Assembly (NCBI GenBank): GCA_964601965.1
Contig: CAZRPJ010000011.1
Span: 221 to 64,220, forward strand
Source: an uncultured Croceivirga sp.
GTDB taxonomy: Bacteria; Bacteroidota; Bacteroidia; Flavobacteriales; Flavobacteriaceae
DNA: 64,000 bases
Direction: 5' to 3'
This document shows positions 1,918 to 10,725 of this stretch, in pieces (position 1 is the first letter of the stretch; every line of letters begins with the position of its first letter). A model generated the notes under the pieces. It was not told where the DNA came from. It did no database searches and saw nothing but the letters and a program-made list of their open reading frames with translations. The translations under genes and the position numbers were made by a program.

Positions 1918-4105
1918 AAATGTTCTCCCCAATTTTTTGATAAAAGACTTCTGGCTTAAAGGGTTTGGTAACTACTGCGTTACATCCGGCCGCATAGAAT
2001 TCATCTAAGCTGTCTTCCATGGAAATTGCCGTAAGGGCTATGATAGGTATAGTTTCATTAAACTTACGGATTTGAATGGTGGCTTCGGTTCCGCTAATAC
2101 CAGGCATATGAATATCCATTAAAATACAGGCATATTCATTGGCTTTGGCAGCGTCTATCGCTTCATTACCGTTGTTGGCTATATCACAGGTAATACCTTT
2201 CTTAGAAAGCATCTTTTTAGTAATTACCTGATTAATTTTATTGTCTTCAACTACCAAGACATGCAGACCTTCAAAATCAAAGTCATCAACACTCATTTCA
2301 AAAGGTACTTCTTCTAAGGAGGTTTCTTCTACTTTAAGATCTAAATCGAAGTAAAAGGTGCTTCCTTCTCCCAAGGTACTTTTAAGGTTAATGGAACTAT
2401 CAAAAAGGCCAAGGAGACTTTTTACAATGGTAAGACCAAGACCGGTGCCCCCGTATTCTCGGTTTATTTGAATAGAACCTTGTTCAAAGCTGTCGAATAT
2501 ATTTTTTTGCTGTTGCTCAGATATTCCTATTCCATTGTCTCGCACTTCAAAATAGACGGTAATGTTCTCATCGTCCCTACTTTTAAGCTTGGCTACCACA
2601 TCTACCTGCCCATCTTTAGTAAATTTCAATGCATTGCCAATGAGGTTCATAAAGATCTGTGAGATTTTAAGAGGGTCACCTAATAGATTGTTAGGAATTT
2701 TTTGATCGTAATCTAAAATAACCTTGGTATTGTTCTCTTTGGCATTCTGTTGCAATGAGTCCACCACATCTGCAATAACCTTCTTTAATTTGAATTCAAT
2801 GTTTAGTGGTTCTAATTTGTCGGCATCAATCTTATTTATTTGAAGGATATCATTAATGAAATTCAACAAATAGTCACCAGAAAATTTTAATGACTTCAAG
2901 TGTTCTTTTTGGTGATCTGCCGGGTTTTCATCTAAAAGAAGGTGAGTTAATCCCGTCACGGCGTAAAGCGGAGTTCTTAATTCATGTGTAACGGTAGAAA
3001 GGAAATTACTTTTAGCTTCCATCGCAGAAACCGCCGCATCTCTTGCCTGTTCTAATTCGGAATTTTTGGTCTGCAGTAAGTCGTTGGTTTTAAGTTTAAT
3101 TTGATTATTCCTGAAAAGCGAAATAGATAGAATAGAGATGATCACTAAAAAAGCAGAGGCTAAGATGGCGGTAATTTCAGAACGGTTGGCCGAAGCTTTA
3201 ATTTCCTCCACTTCTGCTTCGAGTTCGTCTATGGTTTTGTTTTGCTGTCTAAAACGTATTTTATCCGCAGTATTAGCTTCTAGTTTTACTTTATCAATCG
3301 TAAAAAGAGAATCTTTTATTTCGATCAGTTCTTTATTTAAAGAAGATGATTTTTCAAAGTCTCCGATGTTTTCATAAACCCCCGCTAAGTAATTACTGGC
3401 TGCTACAATTTCACGAAAGAATTGATTCTTTCTAGCTAACGTAAGCGCAGCCTCACCATGTTTTATACTATCCTCATAGTTCCCTTGTTTATCGTGCATT
3501 CTTGCCAGCCCCATATTGGCCATGGTGGCTAAGTAAGCGCGTTCCATTTCATCAGAGTTCACAATTAAGGCATTGAATTTCACCGAGGCCTCTTCAAACT
3601 TTTCAATATTTAAATAGACATTGGCTTCTGCCAAGAGAATATTGTTAAGTAAATTCTTATCGTTATTTAGTTTTTTAGCTTCCAACAATTCATTGATTGC
3701 TTGGAAATTATTTCCAGAACGGTAGAGAAGGGTAGCATTTATGAATTGATGAACTGCTTCTCCATAGGGGTATTCTGTATCTTTTAGAAGCACACCTGCA
3801 CGATCCCAATAAAAAAGTGTGGTTTCTCTATCATCAATTTCTAAATAGAGCAATGCAAATTTGTGATAAGTGTCTAATAGGGCCTTTAGATCTTCATTGC
3901 GTTCGGCTAAATTGGCTGCTTTTTCCAAAACTTCCATTGCGGGTGCAATTTTATTTTGGTGTCTTAAAGTGAGGGATTGATAGTAGTAATAGTCTAGCGA
4001 GTCCTTGGGGCTATAGGAGGTCTGTGCCATTATCCAAAAAACAGATAAAAGCATAGCGCAATTACACACCAACGCCTTGGTGGTTTTATGTATATGCTCC
4101 AACAT
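1889..4105 (-). CDS. TPR-containing hybrid sensor histidine kinase/response regulator
   Basis: N-terminal helical TPR-like region, one TM segment, H-box THELRTPL, N/G boxes (NLIGNALKFT, DNGIG, GGTGLGL), C-terminal receiver (VEDNKIN, LMDIHMP, KP). Confidence 0.9.
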   Translation of the reverse strand: MLEHIHKTTKALVCNCAMLLSVFWIMAQTSYSPKDSLDYYYYQSLTLRHQNKIAPAMEVLEKAANLAERNEDLKALLDTYHKFALLYLEIDDRETTLFYWDRAGVLLKDTEYPYGEAVHQFINATLLYRSGNNFQAINELLEAKKLNNDKNLLNNILLAEANVYLNIEKFEEASVKFNALIVNSDEMERAYLATMANMGLARMHDKQGNYEDSIKHGEAALTLARKNQFFREIVAASNYLAGVYENIGDFEKSSSLNKELIEIKDSLFTIDKVKLEANTADKIRFRQQNKTIDELEAEVEEIKASANRSEITAILASAFLVIISILSISLFRNNQIKLKTNDLLQTKNSELEQARDAAVSAMEAKSNFLSTVTHELRTPLYAVTGLTHLLLDENPADHQKEHLKSLKFSGDYLLNFINDILQINKIDADKLEPLNIEFKLKKVIADVVDSLQQNAKENNTKVILDYDQKIPNNLLGDPLKISQIFMNLIGNALKFTKDGQVDVVAKLKSRDDENITVYFEVRDNGIGISEQQQKNIFDSFEQGSIQINREYGGTGLGLTIVKSLLGLFDSSINLKSTLGEGSTFYFDLDLKVEETSLEEVPFEMSVDDFDFEGLHVLVVEDNKINQVITKKMLSKKGITCDIANNGNEAIDAAKANEYACILMDIHMPGISGTEATIQIRKFNETIPIIALTAISMEDSLDEFYAAGCNAVVTKPFKPEVFYQKIGENIFKTNVGNKV

Positions 4106-5115
4106 TAAATGTATTGTTTCCTTATCAGCAACTCAATTATGTCAATTAATCTTGAGCTATAGCCCGTTTCATTATCGTACCATCCGATGACTTTTACCAT
4201 TTTACCAATAACAGAAGTCATCTGGGAATCAAACGTACAAGAATAATAACTATTGTTTATATCAACAGAAACTATGGGTTCTTCACAGTAGAAAAGTACA
4301 TCTTTTAGTTCATTCGTTGAAATCTCCTTAAAAGTTGCATTGATTTCTTCAATAGAAGTGGCTTTTTTCACATTAAAGGTGATGTCCGTTAAAGAGCCGT
4401 TTGGCACGGGTACGCGAATGCCACAGCCCCCAATTACTTCTGCTAAATCTGGAAAAATTTTGGTTAATGCCTTTGCGGCTCCAGTAGTTGTTGGAATGAT
4501 TGATTGCGATGCAGCCCTTGCTCTCCTTAAATCACGGTGAGGCTGGTCATGCAAACTCTGGTCTGATGTGTAGGAGTGAATGGTTGTAATATACGCCTGA
4601 TCAATACCGCAGAGTTCCTTTATCACCTTTATCATTGGTGCGGCATTATTAGTGGTACACGAAGCATTTGAAATAATATCGTCCTCTGCCGTTAGGCTGG
4701 ATTCATTAACACCATATACGACCATTTTAATCCTATCGTCTGCTGGTGGTACTGAAAGCAACACCTTTTTTGCACCGTTTTTTAGATGACCTTTTAAGCT
4801 TTCTTTGGTCTTGAATTGACCCGTTGCTTCCAGAACCAAGTCTATCCCATAGTCGCCCCAGGGAATAGATTCAGGTTTTTTAAAATTTAAAACTGGGATA
4901 TTTCTTCCATCCGTTACGATGTTGTCACCTTCGTTCTGTATGCTAGCTCCGTAAATACCGTGGATGCTATCATATTTTACCAAGTGGGCTAAAGTTTTGG
5001 CATCTGCGAGATCGTTAATGAGGACTACTTCAATATTTTGATGTGCCTTAATTAATCTAAAAAAGGTTCTACCAATTCTACCAAAACCATTGATTCCTAC
5101 CCTAAGTTTTTTCAT
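4105..5115 (-). CDS. gap: Type I glyceraldehyde-3-phosphate dehydrogenase
   Basis: GINGFGRIGR Rossmann motif, SNASCTTN catalytic Cys, DLRRARAA, WYDNE. Confidence 0.95.
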   Translation of the reverse strand: MKKLRVGINGFGRIGRTFFRLIKAHQNIEVVLINDLADAKTLAHLVKYDSIHGIYGASIQNEGDNIVTDGRNIPVLNFKKPESIPWGDYGIDLVLEATGQFKTKESLKGHLKNGAKKVLLSVPPADDRIKMVVYGVNESSLTAEDDIISNASCTTNNAAPMIKVIKELCGIDQAYITTIHSYTSDQSLHDQPHRDLRRARAASQSIIPTTTGAAKALTKIFPDLAEVIGGCGIRVPVPNGSLTDITFNVKKATSIEEINATFKEISTNELKDVLFYCEEPIVSVDINNSYYSCTFDSQMTSVIGKMVKVIGWYDNETGYSSRLIDIIELLIRKQYI

Positions 5116-6074: not shown

Positions 6075-6635
6075 TTATCGGCTGGCAATGATTGCCGCGA
6101 GGAGTTTTTTGGCCCTTAGCAACTTTACCTTAATGTTATTTACCGGTTCATTTAATGAATTCGCAATTTCGGCATAGCTCATTTCATTAAAATATCGAAG
6201 GTTTAACACCTCTTGGTAGTGTGGTTTTAGTTTTTTAATGTCTGCCAGCAGGGATGCTAGGTTTTGTTCAGTTATGAGGGCATCTTCTACGGTAGGGCTT
6301 TCGTCTAAAATGGCATTTATTTCTTCAGATTTCCCTCTTTCTCGCTCGTCTAGAATATTTCTTTTCCGTTTGCGGATGAGGTCTACATGCAAGTTTTTAG
6401 AAATGGTTATTAACCATGTTCCAAATTGGAAATCCTCATCATAGGTCGCAATTTTATCAAAAGCTCTTGCAAAAGTCTGTATGGAAATATCTTCTGCATC
6501 GTTCTCATTTTTAGTACGTTGCAATTGAAAACCATAAACCTCATTCCAGAAACGATCCAATAATTGACTAAATGCAATCTGGTTGCCCTCTTTTGCCTTG
6601 GCGATGGTTTCCTTTAAATCTGTTGCGGTACTCAA
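6075..6635 (-). CDS. ECF RNA polymerase sigma factor
   Basis: Region 2 (AEDISIQTFARAF, FGTWLITISKN) and region 4 HTH (MSYAEIANSLNEPVNNIKVKLLRAK). TTG start. Confidence 0.9.
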   Translation of the reverse strand: MSTATDLKETIAKAKEGNQIAFSQLLDRFWNEVYGFQLQRTKNENDAEDISIQTFARAFDKIATYDEDFQFGTWLITISKNLHVDLIRKRKRNILDERERGKSEEINAILDESPTVEDALITEQNLASLLADIKKLKPHYQEVLNLRYFNEMSYAEIANSLNEPVNNIKVKLLRAKKLLAAIIASR

Positions 6636-6650
6636 AAAGGTAGCTTTTGC

Positions 6651-6860
6651 CTATTGCGGCTGTATAATGGTGTCTTTTTTGCAATCCTGTTCGTTAGGAA
6701 GTTTTCCACAGAAGCCACAGGCTTCTCCTTCTTTATTTAGAAAAGGATTTTGACTAGCGCAGGTACCTGCAAATTTGCCGTCTTTTTTAGACCAAATTTT
6801 TATAGCAATGCCTGCAAACGCTAAGGCAAGTAACCCAACGGTAAGTAGCACTAATTTCAT
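6651..6860 (-). CDS. Small single-TM protein with four Cys (NqrM-like architecture)
   Basis: Hydrophobic N-terminal helix, then GTC..CGFC..C. Own -7 box TACCTTTG at 6875-6882. Confidence 0.75.
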   Translation of the reverse strand: MKLVLLTVGLLALAFAGIAIKIWSKKDGKFAGTCASQNPFLNKEGEACGFCGKLPNEQDCKKDTIIQPQ

Positions 6861-6929: not shown

Positions 6930-7688
6930 TCAATAATTGATATTTGCAACGATATTTTTTACAGTAGGCGTTTCGTTTCCACCAGTGGGTTCTATAGTAA
7001 TATACCCAATAGCGTTGTCTGCATAAGGAAGCGCCAATAGTTGCTCTTTATCTTCAAATTTTCTAATAACCCCTAAATTAACTAGCTCCCCATTGACTTC
7101 TGCCCACATTTGAAAGCATTGATCTTCTGGTAATTGTGGTAGGTTGCTAACGTTAATGTAGGATAGTTTTTTTACTGGATTAATGTATGCCACCGCTTTA
7201 AGTTCTTTGGCTTTTCTATTCCCATTAACTGTGTAGCGCTTTGTATTAGGATTATTCAATACGATGTATTGATTTCTCAGGTCTTCCAGTTGGACTTTCA
7301 TGTCCATTTCAAGATCCTTTATTTTATTTGTAACAATCGTATTCTTCTGCTGAAGATCCATGTTTTGATTGTAGAAGAAATAAGAAGCTCCAGCAAAAAG
7401 CAGTGCTGCTATACTTGCAGCGATCGCGTATTTGAAAAATTTGCTTCCTTGCCTTTTTTCTTGGCGAATCTTAAGTAAGATTTGCTCTTTTAGTCCTTCT
7501 GGTGCCTTAAGCGCATGCATTTTAGCATAAGACTCCAAGTTTTCTTGTAATTCGTTGTAGGAGGCACGTACTTCTGGATGCATTGCTATATAACGCTCTA
7601 CTTGAAGAGACTCTTCAAGAGAAGTTTCCCCCAAAAGGTATTTTTCAAGTAAATCACCGTCTAAAAAGATGCGTATTTTATCTTTCAT
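6930..7688 (-). CDS. Anti-sigma factor, RskA-type (N-terminal anti-sigma domain, TM, C-terminal RskA domain)
   Basis: LEKYLLG N-terminus, TM helix, coiled coil, LPQLPEDQCFQMWA and ITIEPTGG motifs. Overlaps the sigma stop codon (ATGA). Confidence 0.88.
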   Translation of the reverse strand: MKDKIRIFLDGDLLEKYLLGETSLEESLQVERYIAMHPEVRASYNELQENLESYAKMHALKAPEGLKEQILLKIRQEKRQGSKFFKYAIAASIAALLFAGASYFFYNQNMDLQQKNTIVTNKIKDLEMDMKVQLEDLRNQYIVLNNPNTKRYTVNGNRKAKELKAVAYINPVKKLSYINVSNLPQLPEDQCFQMWAEVNGELVNLGVIRKFEDKEQLLALPYADNAIGYITIEPTGGNETPTVKNIVANINY

Positions 7689-8248
7689 ACTACTATATTT
7701 AATAAGAGCACAAGTACTATTGAACCGTAAATTTTTCTCATTTCCCGCAGCCCTATTTTCAATCGAGATTTAATGGTGCCCAGCGGGATATCTAGCTCAT
7801 CACTAGCCTCTTGCTGAGTCATACCTTCAAAAAACAAGGCTTCTAATACTATTCTATACTTCGGTTCAAGCTTTTCCAGATTTTCTTTTATATCCATGAA
7901 TTCTGGTCTAATGCTCTGCTCACCAAGATTATATACGTCTGAAACGTCTATTTGGATTTCTTTATCGCTTTTTGTGTTAATGCTCCTTAACTTATCTATG
8001 GCTGTATTTCTTGTGATTCGAAATAACCAAGTGAATAACTTGGCCTTTGAAGCATCATAAGAATCAGACTTTTTCCAAATTTTCACAAAACTTTCCTGTA
8101 CGATATCTTGAGCTAAATCTTCATCCTTAACCACTTTGTATGCCACTCCGTATAAGGTGTCAGCGTAATGATCATACAGTAAAGAAATGGCCTTTTCATC
8201 CCTTTCTAACAGAAGTTCAACAATATGTTTTTCGAGAAGTGTGCTCAT
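7685..8248 (-). CDS. ECF sigma factor (SigK-like), cognate of the downstream anti-sigma
   Basis: LAQDIVQESFVKIW, LFTWLFRITRN, IPLGTIKSRLK. Likely start MSTLLEK at 8248; the ORF track starts at 8263. Confidence 0.9.
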   Translation of the reverse strand: MSTLLEKHIVELLLERDEKAISLLYDHYADTLYGVAYKVVKDEDLAQDIVQESFVKIWKKSDSYDASKAKLFTWLFRITRNTAIDKLRSINTKSDKEIQIDVSDVYNLGEQSIRPEFMDIKENLEKLEPKYRIVLEALFFEGMTQQEASDELDIPLGTIKSRLKIGLREMRKIYGSIVLVLLLNIVV

Positions 8249-8286
8249 ATTTCGGCGGGTCATTTTCTCTTTTTATCAAGGAGAAA

Positions 8287-8310
8287 ATCCAAACCAATAG
8301 TTAATGCGTA
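8287..8310 (+). promoter_or_regulatory. Putative ECF-type promoter ATCC-N16-CGTA, divergent from the sigma gene
   Basis: ATCC 8287-8290, 16-nt spacer, CGTA 8307-8310. Resembles the ATCC/CGTA-type cores of SigK- and RpoE-ChrR-type ECF promoters. Confidence 0.45.
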
Positions 8311-8315
8311 TATCT

Positions 8316-8445
8316 AATAACGCTAAAGTATAAAATTGATTATAACGAAGGCGTTTTGCGATAAGAAGTTCTACTTACGATATATATAATTTGGTTAGTT
8401 TGGTTTGGTATAACCCCGGTTTTCTTCCTTAGAGGCCGGGGTTAT
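8316..8445 (+). ncRNA. Candidate small RNA between the ECF sigma gene and murB
   Basis: No credible ORF. Internal hairpins, a TTTGG repeat tract and a strong 3' GC hairpin, downstream of the ECF-like promoter or an alternative TAAAATTG box at 8331-8338. Confidence 0.4.
8410..8445. terminator. GC-rich hairpin at the murB stop (ATAACCCCGG..CCGGGGTTAT)
   Basis: 10-bp perfect inverted repeat plus a G-U pair. Only a weak U-tail on + (TTATCTTAT) and none on -. Confidence 0.55.
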
Positions 8446-9458
8446 CTTATGATGTTTACTTCAGGTGTTAAGGTTATTCCGAAAGTTTTTTGAACAGTTT
8501 TTTGAATCTTTTTAGCTAGTTCTAATAGTTCTTTTCCTGTAGCATTGCCGTGATTTACTAGCACCAATGCTTGTTTGTGATGTACCCCTGCATCCCCGTA
8601 CTTTTTACCTTTAAATCCGCATTGTTCTATGAGCCAACCCGCTGGAATTTTGTACTCATTAGTTTCTAGTGGGTAAAAAGGGGCATTTGGGTGTTTTTTT
8701 TGAAATTTATCGAACGTCTTTTTAGAAATAACGGGATTTTTAAAGAAGCTCCCACTATTACCAATTACTTTCGGATCTGGTAATTTTTCACTTCTTATGG
8801 CTATGACGGCATCGGAAACATTCCGAATGGTAGGATTAATAACATCCATACTTTTAAGCTGCGCTTCAATAGCCCCGTAAAATGTATGTAAAACATGCGG
8901 CTCTTTCGTTAATCTCAATTTAACCGAAGTAATAATGTACTCCCCTTTTACTTCATTCTTGAAAATAGAATCACGATAGCCAAATTTGCAGTCTGCATTA
9001 GAGAATTCCTTTAACTCTAGCGATTTTATATGCATCGCCTCACAGCTTACAAAAACATCTTTTAATTCAACCCCATAAGCCCCGATGTTTTGAATAGGTG
9101 CTGTTCCTGTATTGCCTGGGATAAGGGAAAGATTTTCAAGACCGCCAAACCCTTGATTGAGGCTCCATAGTACCAGATCGTGCCAATTTTCACCAGCCAT
9201 AACCTTGATTACCACAGATGTATCATCTTGTTCTAAGACACGAATGCCCTTTAAGTTTATGTGCATGACTAGGGCGTCTATGTCTTTAGTTAGTAGCATA
9301 TTGCTTCCACCACTTATGATGAAGCGCTCTGGATAGGCAGACAGCTCCAAAAGCTTTTGTAGTTGTGCTAGCCCATTAACTTCCACAAAGTGCTTTGCTA
9401 AGACATCGATGCCAAAGGTGTTGTATTTTTTTAAGGAAACATTCTCTCTAATTTCCAA
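8442..9458 (-). CDS. murB: UDP-N-acetylenolpyruvoylglucosamine reductase
   Basis: GGGSN-like SGGSNML, LSLIPGNTGTAPIQNIGAYG, FGYRDSIFK, GNSGSFFKNP, HALV-like QALVLVN. Confidence 0.96.
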   Translation of the reverse strand: MEIRENVSLKKYNTFGIDVLAKHFVEVNGLAQLQKLLELSAYPERFIISGGSNMLLTKDIDALVMHINLKGIRVLEQDDTSVVIKVMAGENWHDLVLWSLNQGFGGLENLSLIPGNTGTAPIQNIGAYGVELKDVFVSCEAMHIKSLELKEFSNADCKFGYRDSIFKNEVKGEYIITSVKLRLTKEPHVLHTFYGAIEAQLKSMDVINPTIRNVSDAVIAIRSEKLPDPKVIGNSGSFFKNPVISKKTFDKFQKKHPNAPFYPLETNEYKIPAGWLIEQCGFKGKKYGDAGVHHKQALVLVNHGNATGKELLELAKKIQKTVQKTFGITLTPEVNIIR

Positions 9459-10647
9459 GGCTCTTATACTTTTTAAGTCCTTCCTCTAATATAGCTACGG
9501 CTCTTTTAAGTGCTGGGGCTTCTAAAACATACGCAATTCTAATCTGATTTCTACCTAGATTGGGGGTCGCGTAAAACCCTCCTGCTGGGGCCACCATGAC
9601 CGTTTCATTATTTATTTGAAATTCCTCTAACAACCATTGTGCAAAATTATCAGCATCAACAATAGGAAGTTCTGCAACGCAATAAAAGGCACCACTTGGT
9701 CTTGCAATACGTACTCCCTCAATGTTTTCAAGCGCTGCCACTAAAAGATCTCTTCTGGCAACATATTCTTCTTTTACTTCTTCAAAGTAACTGGCAGGAG
9801 TATCTAGCGCGGCTTCACTTGCAATCTGTGCCAGGGTAGGGGGTGATAATCTTGCTTGGGCAAATTTCAATATGGCTTCCATTACTTGGCTATTTCTTGA
9901 GACAACGCAACCAATGCGGGCGCCACACATGCTGTAGCGTTTAGAAACCGAATCTACAATAATGGCATGTTCCTCCATATTTGGTTCTCTTAAAATGGAG
10001 AAATGTTCTTTATTGTCGTATGCAAATTCACGGTATACTTCGTCTGCCACCAAGAAAAGGTCGTGCTTCTTTGCAAGGGCTGTTAATTGAATGATTTCTT
10101 CATGGGTATATAAGTATCCCGTCGGGTTTCCCGGATTACAAATGAGAATTGCCTTTGTTTTATCGGTAATGACTTTCTCAAATTCTGAAATAGGCGGTAG
10201 GGCGAAATTTGTAGAAATCGAAGAGGGAATAGGAATGACCTTCACACCATTGGCCTGTGCAAACCCATTGTAGTTTGCGTAAAAAGGCTCTGGAATTATT
10301 AATTCATCTCCATCGTCTAAAATAGCTCCTAACGTAAAGGAAAGAGCTTCCGAACCGCCTGTTGTGACAATAATTTGATCGGCGGTTACATTAATTTCAT
10401 GTTTTGCATAGTAGGCTGCAATTTTTTCCCGGTAAACTTCGGATCCTTCAGTTCTGCTATACGCTAATACATCAATCTCTGCATTTTTAACGGCGTCAAT
10501 AGCAATTTTTGGAGTTTTAATATCAGGTTGTCCAATATTCAAATGTATCACATGAACTCCTCTCTTTTTAGCGGCTTCTGCGTACGGCACCAACTTACGA
10601 ATAGGCGATGCGGGCATGTTTTGACCCTTAACGGAAATTTGTGGCAT
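9448..10647 (-). CDS. PLP-dependent class I/II aminotransferase
   Basis: LNIGQPD, CNPGNPTG, DEVY, SVSKRYSMCGARIG (PLP Lys). Likely start MPQIS at 10647. Confidence 0.9.
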   Translation of the reverse strand: MPQISVKGQNMPASPIRKLVPYAEAAKKRGVHVIHLNIGQPDIKTPKIAIDAVKNAEIDVLAYSRTEGSEVYREKIAAYYAKHEINVTADQIIVTTGGSEALSFTLGAILDDGDELIIPEPFYANYNGFAQANGVKVIPIPSSISTNFALPPISEFEKVITDKTKAILICNPGNPTGYLYTHEEIIQLTALAKKHDLFLVADEVYREFAYDNKEHFSILREPNMEEHAIIVDSVSKRYSMCGARIGCVVSRNSQVMEAILKFAQARLSPPTLAQIASEAALDTPASYFEEVKEEYVARRDLLVAALENIEGVRIARPSGAFYCVAELPIVDADNFAQWLLEEFQINNETVMVAPAGGFYATPNLGRNQIRIAYVLEAPALKRAVAILEEGLKKYKSLGN

Positions 10648-10725
10648 TCCTCTAATTTTTGGCAAAAATGGTGAAACTCACCAAAGAATACAACCCAAAA
10701 GTGAATGGGAGAGTGGTAAAAGAGA

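What the first reader, a model, noticed from the sequence alone, without database searches (positions are those of the whole stretch)
8287..8445. Candidate ECF-sigma-driven small RNA divergent from the SigK-like sigma/anti-sigma pair
Seen in sequence: the ~190-bp gap between the sigma gene and the murB stop has no credible ORF but is structured. It holds ATCC-N16-CGTA pointing away from the sigma gene, small hairpins (AACG-aagg-CGTT; TAAG..CTTA), a repeat tract TTTGGTTAGTTTGGTTTGG (8390-8408) and an 11-bp GC hairpin overlapping the murB stop. Established: SigK/RskA-type and RpoE/ChrR-type ECFs use ATCC-containing -35 and CGWA-type -10 elements, and often control a divergent neighbour. Inference: here the divergent target is a ~105-130 nt sRNA whose U/G-rich single-stranded tract could pair with the A/C-rich 5' UTRs typical of Bacteroidota or bind an RNA-binding protein. 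That would be a sigma/anti-sigma/sRNA module. The alternative is a structured murB 3' UTR on the - strand.
Basis: partly seen in the sequence, partly recalled or inferred. Interest (0 to 1): 0.7.

Follow-up and report, generated by a model that had tools for sequence, protein, structure and literature searches.

The report
Conserved small RNA beside ECF sigma
The gap between murB and an ECF sigma-factor gene holds a small non-coding RNA gene, about 133 nt long and not in Rfam. It is conserved across many genera of marine Flavobacteriaceae and sits behind the promoter type that this kind of sigma factor reads, so it is probably the RNA arm of that stress response.

Summary
On its own, ATCC-N16-CGTA is not enriched in the window (4 matches against 2.6 expected). 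Comparison with about 200 related loci shows the interval is under strong selection.

- **Promoter.** ATCCAA-N14/15-CGTATAT keeps both boxes and its spacing while the spacer sequence varies.
- **Second copy.** The same motif, with the same spacing, lies inside the sigma gene in the sense direction. It occupies the only six synonymously frozen codons among 133 testable ones.
- **Known match.** The motif equals the published RpoE/ChrR-type consensus TGATCC-N16-CGTA. RpoE of R. sphaeroides and SigK of M. tuberculosis are the sigma's closest solved relatives.
- **RNA body.** Downstream lie a conserved 5' box, a covarying stem-loop, the invariant tract UUUGGUUAGUUUGGUUUGGUAUA, and a covarying GC hairpin with a U-rich tail.
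- **Strand.** Wobble pairs fit the + strand only (73 G.U cells against 4 A.C), so the "murB 3' UTR" alternative is rejected.

The element is single-copy, always adjacent to this sigma, has no ORF of 20 aa or more, and matches no Rfam family.

Not shown: the transcript ends, dependence on the sigma, and the targets. I file it as a new member of a known kind, the ECF-dependent sRNA.

The parts
8287..8292 (+). -35 box ATCCAA of the candidate ECF-type promoter; it lies 39 nt from the sigma ATG on the other strand and points away from sigma
   Evidence: ATCCAA in 105 of 136 distinct sequences; the variants are ATCTAA, ATCCGA and GTCCAA
8307..8313 (+). -10 box CGTATAT; the spacer from ATCC to CGTA is 16 nt
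   Evidence: CGTATAT in 120 of 136 sequences, and the spacer is 16 or 17 nt in all 136. It matches TGATCC-N16-CGTA of RpoE/ChrR-type promoters
8318..8452 (+). Predicted sRNA, about 133 nt. The 5' end is inferred at 8318-8321 and the 3' end after the U-rich tail at about 8450-8453
   Evidence: Covariance model R1, built only from another clade, matches 8314-8450 on the + strand at 79.7 bits, E 4e-14, and this is the only significant hit in the window. No ORF of 20 aa or more. The ends are inferred, not measured
8319..8343 (+). Conserved 5' box AACGCUAAAGUAUAAAAUUGAUUAU, a candidate seed or apical loop; it starts 5 nt after the -10 box
   Evidence: ACGCU, UA, GAUU and other columns are invariant or at least 90% conserved. 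The enclosing stem (AACGC 8319-8323 with GCGUU 8351-8355) is not supported by covariation (helices 1 and 2)
8356..8389 (+). Variable middle segment. In other clades it holds an 11-bp covarying stem-loop (SL2); in this clade it is shortened
   Evidence: helix 3: 95.1% of cells paired and 6 pairs with changes on both sides; 25 model positions are replaced by 7 nt in the window
8390..8409 (+). Invariant U/G tract UUUGGUUAGUUUGGUUUGGU, predicted single-stranded, directly 5' of the terminator
   Evidence: unique in the window, identical across all 74 aligned genome sequences, and present as an exact 23-mer in more than 120 metagenome contigs
8410..8445 (+). Terminator hairpin (ATAACCCCGG with CCGGGGUUAU, 16-nt loop) overlapping the murB stop codon at 8442-8444
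   Evidence: helix 4: 97.7% of cells paired and 6 pairs with changes on both sides. G.U on the + strand in 48 cells against 1 A.C. More stable on the + strand in 167 of 176 sequences
8446..8453 (+). U-rich tail CUUAUGAU (UUAUUUUAU or UUAUUUUUU in most relatives)
   Evidence: the tail is kept as TTATTTTTT or TTATTTTAT in loci where the murB stop lies 60-100 nt away, so it is not only a by-product of murB codons
7931..7957 (-). Second copy of the promoter motif, ATCCAA-N14-CGTATAT, inside the sigma gene (codons 98-106) in the sense direction; presumed internal promoter towards the anti-sigma gene
   Evidence: of 133 testable codons, only I98, Q99, V102, D104, V105 and Y106 have relative synonymous entropy below 0.1, against a gene mean of 0.76
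7685..8248 (-). ECF sigma factor gene; the conserved start codon is at 8248
   Evidence: Pfam Sigma70_r2, Sigma70_r4 and Sigma70_ECF. Closest solved structures are RpoE of R. sphaeroides (2q1z) and SigK (4nqw). 80-96% amino-acid identity in the 80 genome loci
6930..7688 (-). Anti-sigma factor gene with a C-terminal RskA domain; its start overlaps the sigma stop
   Evidence: Pfam RskA_C at 46.3 bits against a cut-off of 29.4
8442..9458 (-). murB, convergent with the sRNA
   Evidence: Pfam MurB_C and FAD_binding_4

Best explanation
Window 8287-8453 on the + strand is a small-RNA gene. It has three parts: an RpoE/SigK-type ECF promoter (ATCCAA-N14-CGTATAT), a non-coding transcript of about 133 nt, and a Rho-independent-type terminator whose stem overlaps the murB stop codon.

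The gene lies back to back with the ECF sigma / RskA-type anti-sigma operon. When the anti-sigma factor releases the sigma factor, I infer that the sigma fires two promoters of identical design. One drives this sRNA. The other lies inside its own coding sequence and reads into the anti-sigma gene, which would give negative feedback.

I infer that the sRNA then acts post-transcriptionally as the non-coding arm of the response. It would use its two invariant unpaired segments: the 5' box ACGCUAAnnUAUAAAAUUGAUU and the 3' tract UUUGGUUAGUUUGGUUUGGUAUA. One would pair with mRNAs. The other, next to the terminator, would serve as a platform for an RNA-binding protein.

- **Shown by sequence comparison:** selection on the promoter boxes and their spacing; the RNA structure and its strand; the fixed linkage to the sigma gene.
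- **Inferred:** transcription itself and the transcript ends; which sigma reads the promoter; the mode of action.
For: 1. **Promoter.** Both boxes and the 16/17-nt spacing are conserved in 136 distinct sequences while the spacer is free. The motif equals TGATCC-N16-CGTA, documented for RpoE/ChrR-type sigmas, including one that drives the sRNA Pos19. The adjacent sigma's best solved relatives are RpoE of R. sphaeroides and SigK.
2. **Second copy.** An independent copy with the same spacing sits in the sigma gene. It coincides exactly with the only six synonymously frozen codons of 133. The refined motif occurs nowhere else in the 64 kb.
3. **Structure.** Two helices are 95-98% paired, each with 6 pairs changed on both sides, and no shuffle of 500 reaches the observed values. 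RNAalifold recovers the terminator.
4. **Strand.** There are 73 G.U cells against 4 A.C cells. The hairpin is more stable on the + strand in 167 of 176 sequences, Wilcoxon p = 2e-29.
5. **Terminator tail.** The U-rich tail is retained where murB ends elsewhere.
6. **Linkage.** The murB / element / sigma / anti-sigma order holds in the 77 of 80 genome loci with enough flank. The 17-nt core of the tract is exact in 76 of the 80, one copy per locus. In the 120 metagenome contigs with the exact 23-mer, the sigma lies about 150 nt away wherever the flank suffices, apart from the degraded locus L124. The element stays with the sigma in L078, where a 386-bp tandem repeat separates it from murB.
7. 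**Homology across clades.** A covariance model built without this clade finds the window copy at E 4e-14.
8. **Not coding, not described.** There is no ORF of 20 aa or more and no Rfam family at gathering score.
9. **Close-range conservation.** Between two Zobellia species, no substitution and one single-base insertion are listed over 275 nt (L036 3744-4019) spanning the intergenic region. The surrounding 1.8-kb stretch differs at 42 positions, about 2.3%.
Against: - No strand-resolved expression data could be obtained. The public RNA runs that hold the interval are available only as strandless contigs. These run through the interval at depths like the neighbouring genes and show no discrete abundant small transcript.
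- The bare ATCC-N16-CGTA motif is not enriched in the window.
- The window's own terminator fails a strict consensus scan because it has a 16-nt loop and only 4 U in the 8 nt after the stem.
- The single-sequence folding z-score on the + strand is only -1.48.
- The 5' stem (SL1) has no covariation support.
- No candidate target stands out among 63 translation-initiation regions of the window. None stands out among conserved neighbouring genes across 65-73 genomes either.
- A second ECF sigma gene lies 1 kb away and could in principle read the CGTA -10 box.
Confidence: 0.72

Rival explanations
1. The same + strand RNA exists but acts in cis as an antisense RNA. It is fully complementary to any murB-to-sigma read-through transcript. 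Its sigma-dependent synthesis would cleave or occlude that transcript, or collide with it, and so feed back on sigma expression rather than regulating distant mRNAs.
For: RNA-derived contigs run without a break from murB through the gap into sigma in several runs (contig 17), so sense transcription across the gap is possible. On the - strand the hairpin is followed by UUAUACCAAACC, a poor terminator tail. No trans target was found.
Against: Cis-antisense pairing needs no sequence conservation, yet a tract of at least 20 nt and the 5' box are invariant across genera. The contigs are strandless and may include DNA. Contig breaks recur between the sRNA start and the sigma start at L036 3903-3992.
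Confidence: 0.15
2. The RNA works mainly as a protein-binding decoy or sponge. The triple UUUGG repeat (UUUGG-UUAG-UUUGG-UUUGG) next to the terminator would titrate a single-strand RNA-binding protein, in a phylum that mostly lacks Hfq and CsrA.
For: Invariance of the tract over all 74 aligned genome sequences and more than 120 metagenome contigs is more typical of a protein site than of a seed. The tract has an internal repeat structure. No complementary C/A-rich site was found in nearby leaders.
Against: No protein partner is known or testable here. There is only one tract per RNA, whereas known sponges carry many sites. The tract may simply be the chaperone-binding module of an ordinary base-pairing sRNA.
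Confidence: 0.15
3. The functional strand is the - strand. The hairpin and the C/A-rich ACCAAACCAAACUAACCAAA would then be a structured murB 3' UTR or a long 5' leader of the sigma mRNA.
For: The hairpin overlaps the murB stop. The - strand folds with a better single-sequence z-score, -2.65. Contigs from RNA runs cross the region.
Against: Wobble asymmetry is 73 G.U on the + strand against 4 A.C. The hairpin is weaker on the - strand in 167 of 176 sequences. The element is kept when the murB stop is 60-100 nt or 2.3 kb away. The conserved promoter is oriented towards +.
Confidence: 0.05
4. There is no discrete RNA. The interval would be a DNA-level control region, with transcription-factor sites made of TTTGG direct repeats and a bidirectional terminator for convergent reading.
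For: Primary-sequence invariance without covariation in the 5' box and the tract is also what DNA-binding sites show. No small transcript has been demonstrated.
Against: A covarying stem-loop (SL2) with strand-specific wobble pairs lies between the promoter and the tract, which a DNA site does not explain. The promoter-body-terminator order and distances are conserved.
Confidence: 0.05

Closest known systems
Pos19, the RpoE/ChrR-dependent sRNA of Rhodobacter sphaeroides (PMC5036791)
   Same: It is driven by the same promoter type (TGATCC-N15-GCGTA, that is ATCC-N16-CGTA), ends in a stem-loop terminator, and is induced when an anti-sigma factor releases an RpoE-type ECF sigma.
   Different: Pos19 is 219 nt, carries a translated 150-nt ORF, is Hfq-dependent, is not next to rpoE-chrR, and is confined to R. 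sphaeroides strains. There is no sequence similarity. The present RNA has no ORF of 20 aa or more, is linked to its sigma gene, and spans many genera of another phylum.
sigmaE-dependent sRNAs MicA, RybB and MicL of enterobacteria (from my own knowledge)
   Same: These are the 'non-coding arm' of an envelope-stress ECF response: short RNAs with ECF promoters and intrinsic terminators that repress abundant envelope-protein mRNAs.
   Different: They are unlinked to rpoE, Hfq-dependent, use a different promoter consensus (GGAACTT...TCAAA), and are unrelated in sequence. Targets of the present RNA are unknown.
Rfp11, Rfp31 and Rfp74, sRNAs behind ECF-type (SM6) promoters in Flavobacterium psychrophilum (PMC9723704)
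   Same: They come from the same bacterial family and are experimentally mapped small transcripts assigned to an ECF-type promoter class.
   Different: SM6 promoters are of the AAC...CGT type, for example GTAAC-N17-CGTA, not ATCC...CGTA. The Rfp11 sequence is unrelated. In that genome murB is followed by an ABC-transporter gene, not by this sigma.
SigK/RskA (M. tuberculosis) and RpoE/ChrR (R. sphaeroides) sigma/anti-sigma pairs
   Same: They are the sigma's closest solved relatives (E 1e-17 to 8e-19). The anti-sigma has an RskA_C domain. The -35 box contains ATCC.
   Different: The sigma scores 107 bits against a cut-off of 226 for the SigK subfamily model. It has no cysteine at all, so the redox Cys pair described for ECF18/19 is absent. 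No sense-oriented cognate promoter lies upstream of the sigma gene; the sense copy is inside it.
sigmaE-dependent promoter inside rpoE that transcribes rseA in E. coli (from my own knowledge)
   Same: It is a cognate ECF promoter embedded in the sigma coding sequence and reading into the anti-sigma gene.
   Different: It is known from Proteobacteria with a different consensus. Here the promoter is inferred only from synonymous-site conservation.

Membership tests
Any described RNA family (Rfam 15) | Match to a covariance model at its gathering score | tested here: not met
   No match in the whole window at gathering thresholds. The best sub-threshold hit is RgsA at 19.6 bits against 88.4.
RpoE/ChrR- and SigK-type ECF promoter | -35 box containing ATCC, -10 box CGTA, and 16 (to 17) nt between them | tested here: met
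   8287-8310 is ATCC-N16-CGTA. The spacer is 16 or 17 nt in all 136 distinct sequences. Published sites read TGATCC-N16-CGTA.
RpoE/ChrR- and SigK-type ECF promoter | Transcription initiates there and depends on the cognate sigma | not testable with these tools
   Only strandless contigs of RNA runs were available.
Rho-independent terminator | GC-rich stem followed by a U tract | tested here: inconclusive
   The stem is strong and covaries. The window copy fails the strict scan because of its 16-nt loop and CUUAUGAU tail. Most relatives have UUAUUUUAU or UUAUUUUUU.
Trans-acting base-pairing sRNA | Discrete non-coding transcript with its own promoter and terminator | tested here: inconclusive
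   The promoter, the terminator and the absence of an ORF are shown by sequence. The transcript itself was not observed.
Trans-acting base-pairing sRNA | Conserved unpaired seed complementary to mRNA targets | tested here: inconclusive
   Two invariant unpaired segments exist. No target exceeds the 1% background level among 63 initiation regions of the window or among conserved neighbours. Whole genomes were not available.
SigK/RskA group (ECF19-like) | Anti-sigma factor with an RskA C-terminal domain | tested here: met
   PF10099 at 46.3 bits against a cut-off of 29.4.
SigK/RskA group (ECF19-like) | Sigma passes the SigK subfamily model | tested here: not met
   NF007228 at 107 bits against a cut-off of 226. 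Only the general ECF superfamily model TIGR02937 passes.
SigK/RskA group (ECF19-like) | Conserved redox-sensing cysteine pair in the sigma (PMC7826278) | tested here: not met
   The 187-aa sigma contains no cysteine (translation).
Cis-antisense RNA | Substantial overlap with a gene or transcript on the opposite strand | tested here: inconclusive
   Overlap with the murB coding sequence is only about 10 nt (8442-8452). Overlap with a possible murB-sigma read-through transcript cannot be judged from strandless contigs.

The most novel reading that the evidence does not exclude
The locus would be a self-contained three-part stress module of sigma, anti-sigma and sRNA. In it, one ECF sigma fires two identical promoters placed back to back around its own 5' half. 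One makes the anti-sigma from inside the sigma coding sequence. The other makes an sRNA. The sRNA's invariant 23-nt U/G tract would be the docking site of a still unknown Hfq-like RNA chaperone or global RNA-binding protein of Flavobacteriaceae. The RNA would then be a direct handle for finding how sRNAs work in a phylum that mostly lacks Hfq and ProQ.
Probability: 0.2. Interest if true: 0.8.

Novelty: new member of a known kind. Interest (0 to 1): 0.6.

Why it matters
Very few regulatory sRNAs are known in Flavobacteriia, and none in Rfam corresponds to this one. This candidate is present, single-copy and almost unchanged, in at least 76 species-level genomes of many genera (Croceivirga, Croceitalea, Zobellia, Maribacter, Eudoraea, Flagellimonas/Muricauda, Kriegella and others). 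It is also present in more than 120 marine and sediment metagenome contigs.

It comes with a clear regulatory hypothesis: an RpoE/SigK-type ECF promoter next to the cognate-looking sigma gene. It also defines that sigma's likely recognition sequence, which can now be used to predict the regulon in complete genomes.

The invariant U/G tract offers bait for finding the RNA-binding partner in a phylum whose sRNA machinery is poorly known. The promoter copy hidden in the sigma coding sequence is a clean example of a non-coding signal that constrains synonymous sites.

Tried and rejected
1. **Rfam.** Nothing matched at gathering score. The RgsA hit (19.6 bits) was dismissed as chance.
2. **Consensus scans.** Sigma-70-like sites occur at the chance level and no terminator is called. 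The scan does not model Bacteroidota or ECF promoters.
3. **Expression.**
   - The window interval is in no listed RNA run.
   - RNA runs of a Zobellia-like 'organism A' and of sediment metatranscriptomes hold orthologous intervals, but only as strandless assembled contigs. Their ends coincide with assembly branch points: the 30-nt overlap at L066 3904-3933 continues in a variant strain.
   - These data therefore give neither strand nor transcript ends.
   - In one metatranscriptome (X37) a contig at about three times higher depth begins about 10-15 nt downstream of the -10 box of the internal promoter (contig match from L066 4336; motif at 4295-4321). Other runs do not repeat this, so I do not count it.
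4. **Targets.** RNAduplex of both conserved segments against 63 initiation regions of the window found nothing beyond the 1% background level. The same test against seven conserved neighbour genes in 65-73 genomes gave medians equal to background.
5. **Other loose ATCC...CGTA matches.** Those at 24979 and 34788 lie inside genes, antisense to them, and were treated as chance. Recurrent ATCC...CGTAAA matches in the related loci fall in conserved lipA codons (IIWAETVK) and were also discarded.
6. **TTGGAT as a Bacteroidota -7 box on the sigma strand.** Rejected because the required TA is not conserved.
7. **A sigma4-only protein from the internal promoter.** Rejected because Met118 is not conserved; for example it is Leu in L078.
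8. **F. psychrophilum transcriptome paper.** Its ECF-type promoters and its sRNA Rfp11 are different, and that genome lacks the murB-sigma arrangement.
There is no covariation, so they are not claimed.
Full report
**Layout**

All protein genes around the finding lie on the - strand:
- an aminotransferase gene (9448-10665);
- murB (8442-9458);
- a gap;
- an ECF sigma gene (7685-8248);
- an anti-sigma gene with an RskA_C domain (6930-7688), whose start overlaps the sigma stop;
- a 69-aa ORF, a second ECF sigma gene (6075-6635) and lipA.

In relatives the conserved start of the sigma is the ATG at 8248, not 8263. The gap is therefore 8249-8441, 193 nt.

**The observation**

- ATCC-N16-CGTA at 8287-8310 (+);
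- the two small hairpins;
- TTTGGTTAGTTTGGTTTGG at 8390-8408;
- the hairpin ATAACCCCGG/CCGGGGTTAT across the murB stop codon.

No ORF of 20 aa or more lies in 8318-8441.

Taken alone, the motif is not remarkable. ATCC-N15-17-CGTA occurs 4 times in the window against 2.57 expected, and a simple scan calls neither a sigma-70 promoter above chance nor a terminator. Rfam has nothing at gathering score; the best weak hit is RgsA at 19.6 bits against 88.4.

**Relatives**

The sigma protein recovered 80 loci from species-representative genomes, out of 538 confirmed relatives. They have 80-96% amino-acid identity and come from Croceivirga, Croceitalea, Zobellia, Maribacter, Eudoraea, Flagellimonas/Muricauda, Kriegella, Aurantibacter and others.

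- murB, sigma and anti-sigma keep the same order in all 77 loci with enough flank, with a gap of 176-276 nt.
- The sigma (80-96%) is more conserved than MurB (60-79%).
- The aligned gaps contain blocks that are identical in all sequences.

On the window's + strand the order is: ATCCAA; about 14-15 free nt; CGTATAT; 5-7 nt; AACGCTAAnnTATAAAATTGATT; a variable part; TTTGGTTAGTTTGGTTTGGTATA; a hairpin; TTATTTTAT.

**The promoter**

Among 136 distinct sequences the -35 box is ATCCAA in 105, and the -10 box is CGTATAT in 120. The distance from ATCC to CGTA is 16 nt in 50 sequences and 17 nt in 86, and never anything else. The spacer sequence itself varies freely. Conserved boxes with fixed spacing and a free spacer are what a promoter looks like.

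The decisive support is a second copy. Inside the sigma gene, in the sense direction (window 7957-7931, codons 98-106), lies ATCCAA-N14-CGTATAT with the same spacing.

Across 79 orthologues, 133 codons have a conserved, degenerate amino acid. Their mean relative synonymous entropy is 0.76. Only six codons fall below 0.1: ATC (I98), CAA (Q99), GTT (V102), GAC (D104), GTA (V105) and TAT (Y106). These are the two boxes plus one spacer codon. The codons between them vary freely.

A refined pattern ([AG]TC[CT]-N16-17-CGTA[ATG]A) occurs at exactly these two places in the 64-kb window. It also occurs at these same two places in nearly every locus.

The motif equals the published consensus of RpoE/ChrR-type ECF sigmas:
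- TGATCC-N16-CGTA at ChIP-supported sites in Pseudomonas syringae (PMC5507510);
- TGATCC(N15)GCGTA upstream of the RpoE-dependent sRNA Pos19 in Rhodobacter sphaeroides (PMC5036791).

The adjacent sigma's closest solved relatives are that RpoE (2q1z, E 7.5e-19) and SigK of M. tuberculosis (4nqw, E 1.4e-17).

I therefore regard the element as the cognate promoter of the neighbouring sigma. This step is an inference from motif, homology and linkage; it has not been demonstrated.

**The RNA and its strand**

In the larger clade, two helices are well supported:
- an 11-bp stem-loop (SL2), with 95.1% of cells paired and 6 pairs changed on both sides;
- the terminal hairpin, with 97.7% of cells paired and 6 pairs changed on both sides.

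None of 500 shuffles reaches the observed values, and sliding the partners drops pairing to 36-46%. RNAalifold finds the terminal hairpin on its own.

The strand follows from wobble pairs. A G.U pair on one strand is a C.A mismatch on the other. In these two helices, 73 cells are G.U on the + strand and only 4 are A.C.

Intermediates such as CCCUCG/CGGGGG link CCCCCG/CGGGGG to CCCUCG/CGAGGG, and they pair only on the + strand. Folded alone, the hairpin is more stable on the + strand in 167 of 176 distinct sequences. The mean difference is 4.7 kcal/mol (Wilcoxon p = 2e-29).

On the + strand the hairpin is followed by UUAUUUUAU or UUAUUUUUU. This tail is kept in about twenty loci where murB ends 60-100 nt away, so murB's last codons do not explain it.

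In L078 a 386-bp tandem repeat (3.4 copies) lies between murB and the element, which stays next to the sigma gene. The - strand reading as a murB 3' UTR is therefore rejected.

A covariance model built only from the larger clade matches the window at 8314-8450 (+) with 79.7 bits, E 4e-14, and nothing else in the window. In the window's own clade SL2 is shortened, with 25 model positions replaced by 7 nt. The RNA is about 133 nt here and about 150-165 nt elsewhere.

The 5' box is conserved as sequence.

**Distribution**

It occurs once per contig. Wherever the flank is long enough, the sigma gene lies about 150 nt away in divergent orientation and murB is convergent.

More AT-rich lineages have ATCTAAAA-N-CGTAAT, and a 5' stem that changes GUAAC/GUUAC to GUAGC/GCUAC.

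Between two Zobellia species, no substitution and one single-base insertion are listed over 275 nt (L036 3744-4019) spanning the 202-nt gap. The surrounding 1.8-kb stretch shows 42 differences.

**What could not be shown**

*Expression.* No RNA run is listed for the window's own interval. Runs of a Zobellia-like organism and sediment metatranscriptomes contain orthologous intervals, but only as strandless contigs. Their ends reflect assembly branch points, so they show at most that the region is transcribed.

*Targets.* Duplex energies of the two invariant segments were computed against 63 initiation regions of the window. The same was done against seven conserved neighbouring genes in 65-73 genomes. 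Neither set exceeds background.

*The sigma's own basal promoter.* No sense-oriented ATCC...CGTA lies upstream of the gene. A T-rich box about 25 nt before the ATG is the only conserved feature there.

**Mechanism proposed**

1. Release of the sigma from the RskA-type anti-sigma activates two promoters of the same design.
2. The internal promoter reads into the anti-sigma gene and gives negative feedback. E. coli has a sigmaE-dependent rseA promoter inside rpoE (my own knowledge).
3. The other promoter makes the sRNA.
4. The sRNA has two invariant unpaired segments. By analogy with other ECF-dependent sRNAs, I propose that one pairs with mRNAs. The analogues are Pos19 and MicA, RybB and MicL (my own knowledge).
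5. The U/G tract lies directly 5' of the terminator, where Hfq-type modules sit in other phyla. I propose that it binds a protein.

Cis-antisense action on a murB-sigma read-through transcript, or a pure protein-sponge role, cannot be excluded.

**Comparison and novelty**

The sigma is RpoE/SigK-like but not a SigK member. It scores 107 bits against a 226-bit cut-off and has no cysteines. The anti-sigma does carry RskA_C.

The RNA belongs to no Rfam family. It is unrelated to the ECF-type-promoter sRNAs mapped in F. psychrophilum, whose promoters are of the AAC...CGT type and whose genome lacks this arrangement.

It is best filed as a new member of a known kind, the ECF-dependent sRNA. Three features are unusual:
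- fixed back-to-back linkage to its sigma gene;
- a twin promoter inside that gene;
- an invariant 23-nt U/G tract.

Noticed in passing
window 7931-7957 (- strand), inside the sigma gene: A second copy of ATCCAA-N14-CGTATAT is embedded in codons 98-106 of the sigma gene. These are the only synonymously frozen codons of the gene across 79 orthologues. It is presumably an internal cognate promoter reading into the anti-sigma gene.
   Followed up: yes
window 8248 versus 8263: The longest ORF of the sigma gene starts at 8263. The start codon conserved in 76 relatives corresponds to 8248 (MSTLLEKH...), so the upstream ATG is probably not used.
   Followed up: partly
window 6075-6860 (- strand): Directly downstream of the anti-sigma gene lie a 69-aa hydrophobic ORF with no family match and a second, SigW-like ECF sigma gene with no adjacent anti-sigma. 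I did not examine whether they belong to the same operon or regulon.
   Followed up: no
window 7685-9458 and loci L001-L080: This ECF sigma is unusually conserved for its family, at 80-96% amino-acid identity across genera. That is more than the essential enzyme MurB next to it (60-79%).
   Followed up: partly
L078:2216-3540: A 386-bp tandem repeat (3.4 copies, 99% identical, no tRNA and no real ORF) is inserted between murB and the sRNA terminator in one metagenome-assembled Flavobacteriaceae genome.
   Followed up: partly
L124 (metagenome contig Ga0163217_1093908), around 3200-4730: In this contig sigma, anti-sigma and murB appear only as low-identity fragments (27-47%) in shifting frames, and the -10 box reads CGATAC. 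The U/G tract, SL2 and the terminator are intact. I cannot tell whether this is a decaying locus, a noisy assembly or a distant lineage.
   Followed up: partly
L036:3744-4019 against RNA-run contigs of 'organism A': No substitution and one single-base insertion (after 3909) are listed over 275 nt spanning the intergenic region between two Zobellia species. The surrounding 1.8-kb stretch differs at 42 positions, about 2.3%.
   Followed up: yes
L066:4295-4340, metatranscriptome run X37: One contig at about three times higher depth begins about 10-15 nt downstream of the -10 box of the internal promoter (contig match from L066 4336), and no contig covers the 230 nt before it. Other runs do not repeat this, so it is only a hint.
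   Followed up: partly
window 8322-8327 with 8399-8404 (+ strand): In the minimum-free-energy fold of the window RNA, the invariant GCUAAA of the 5' box pairs with UUUGGU of the invariant U/G tract. Both sides never vary, so covariation cannot test this long-range helix.
   Followed up: no
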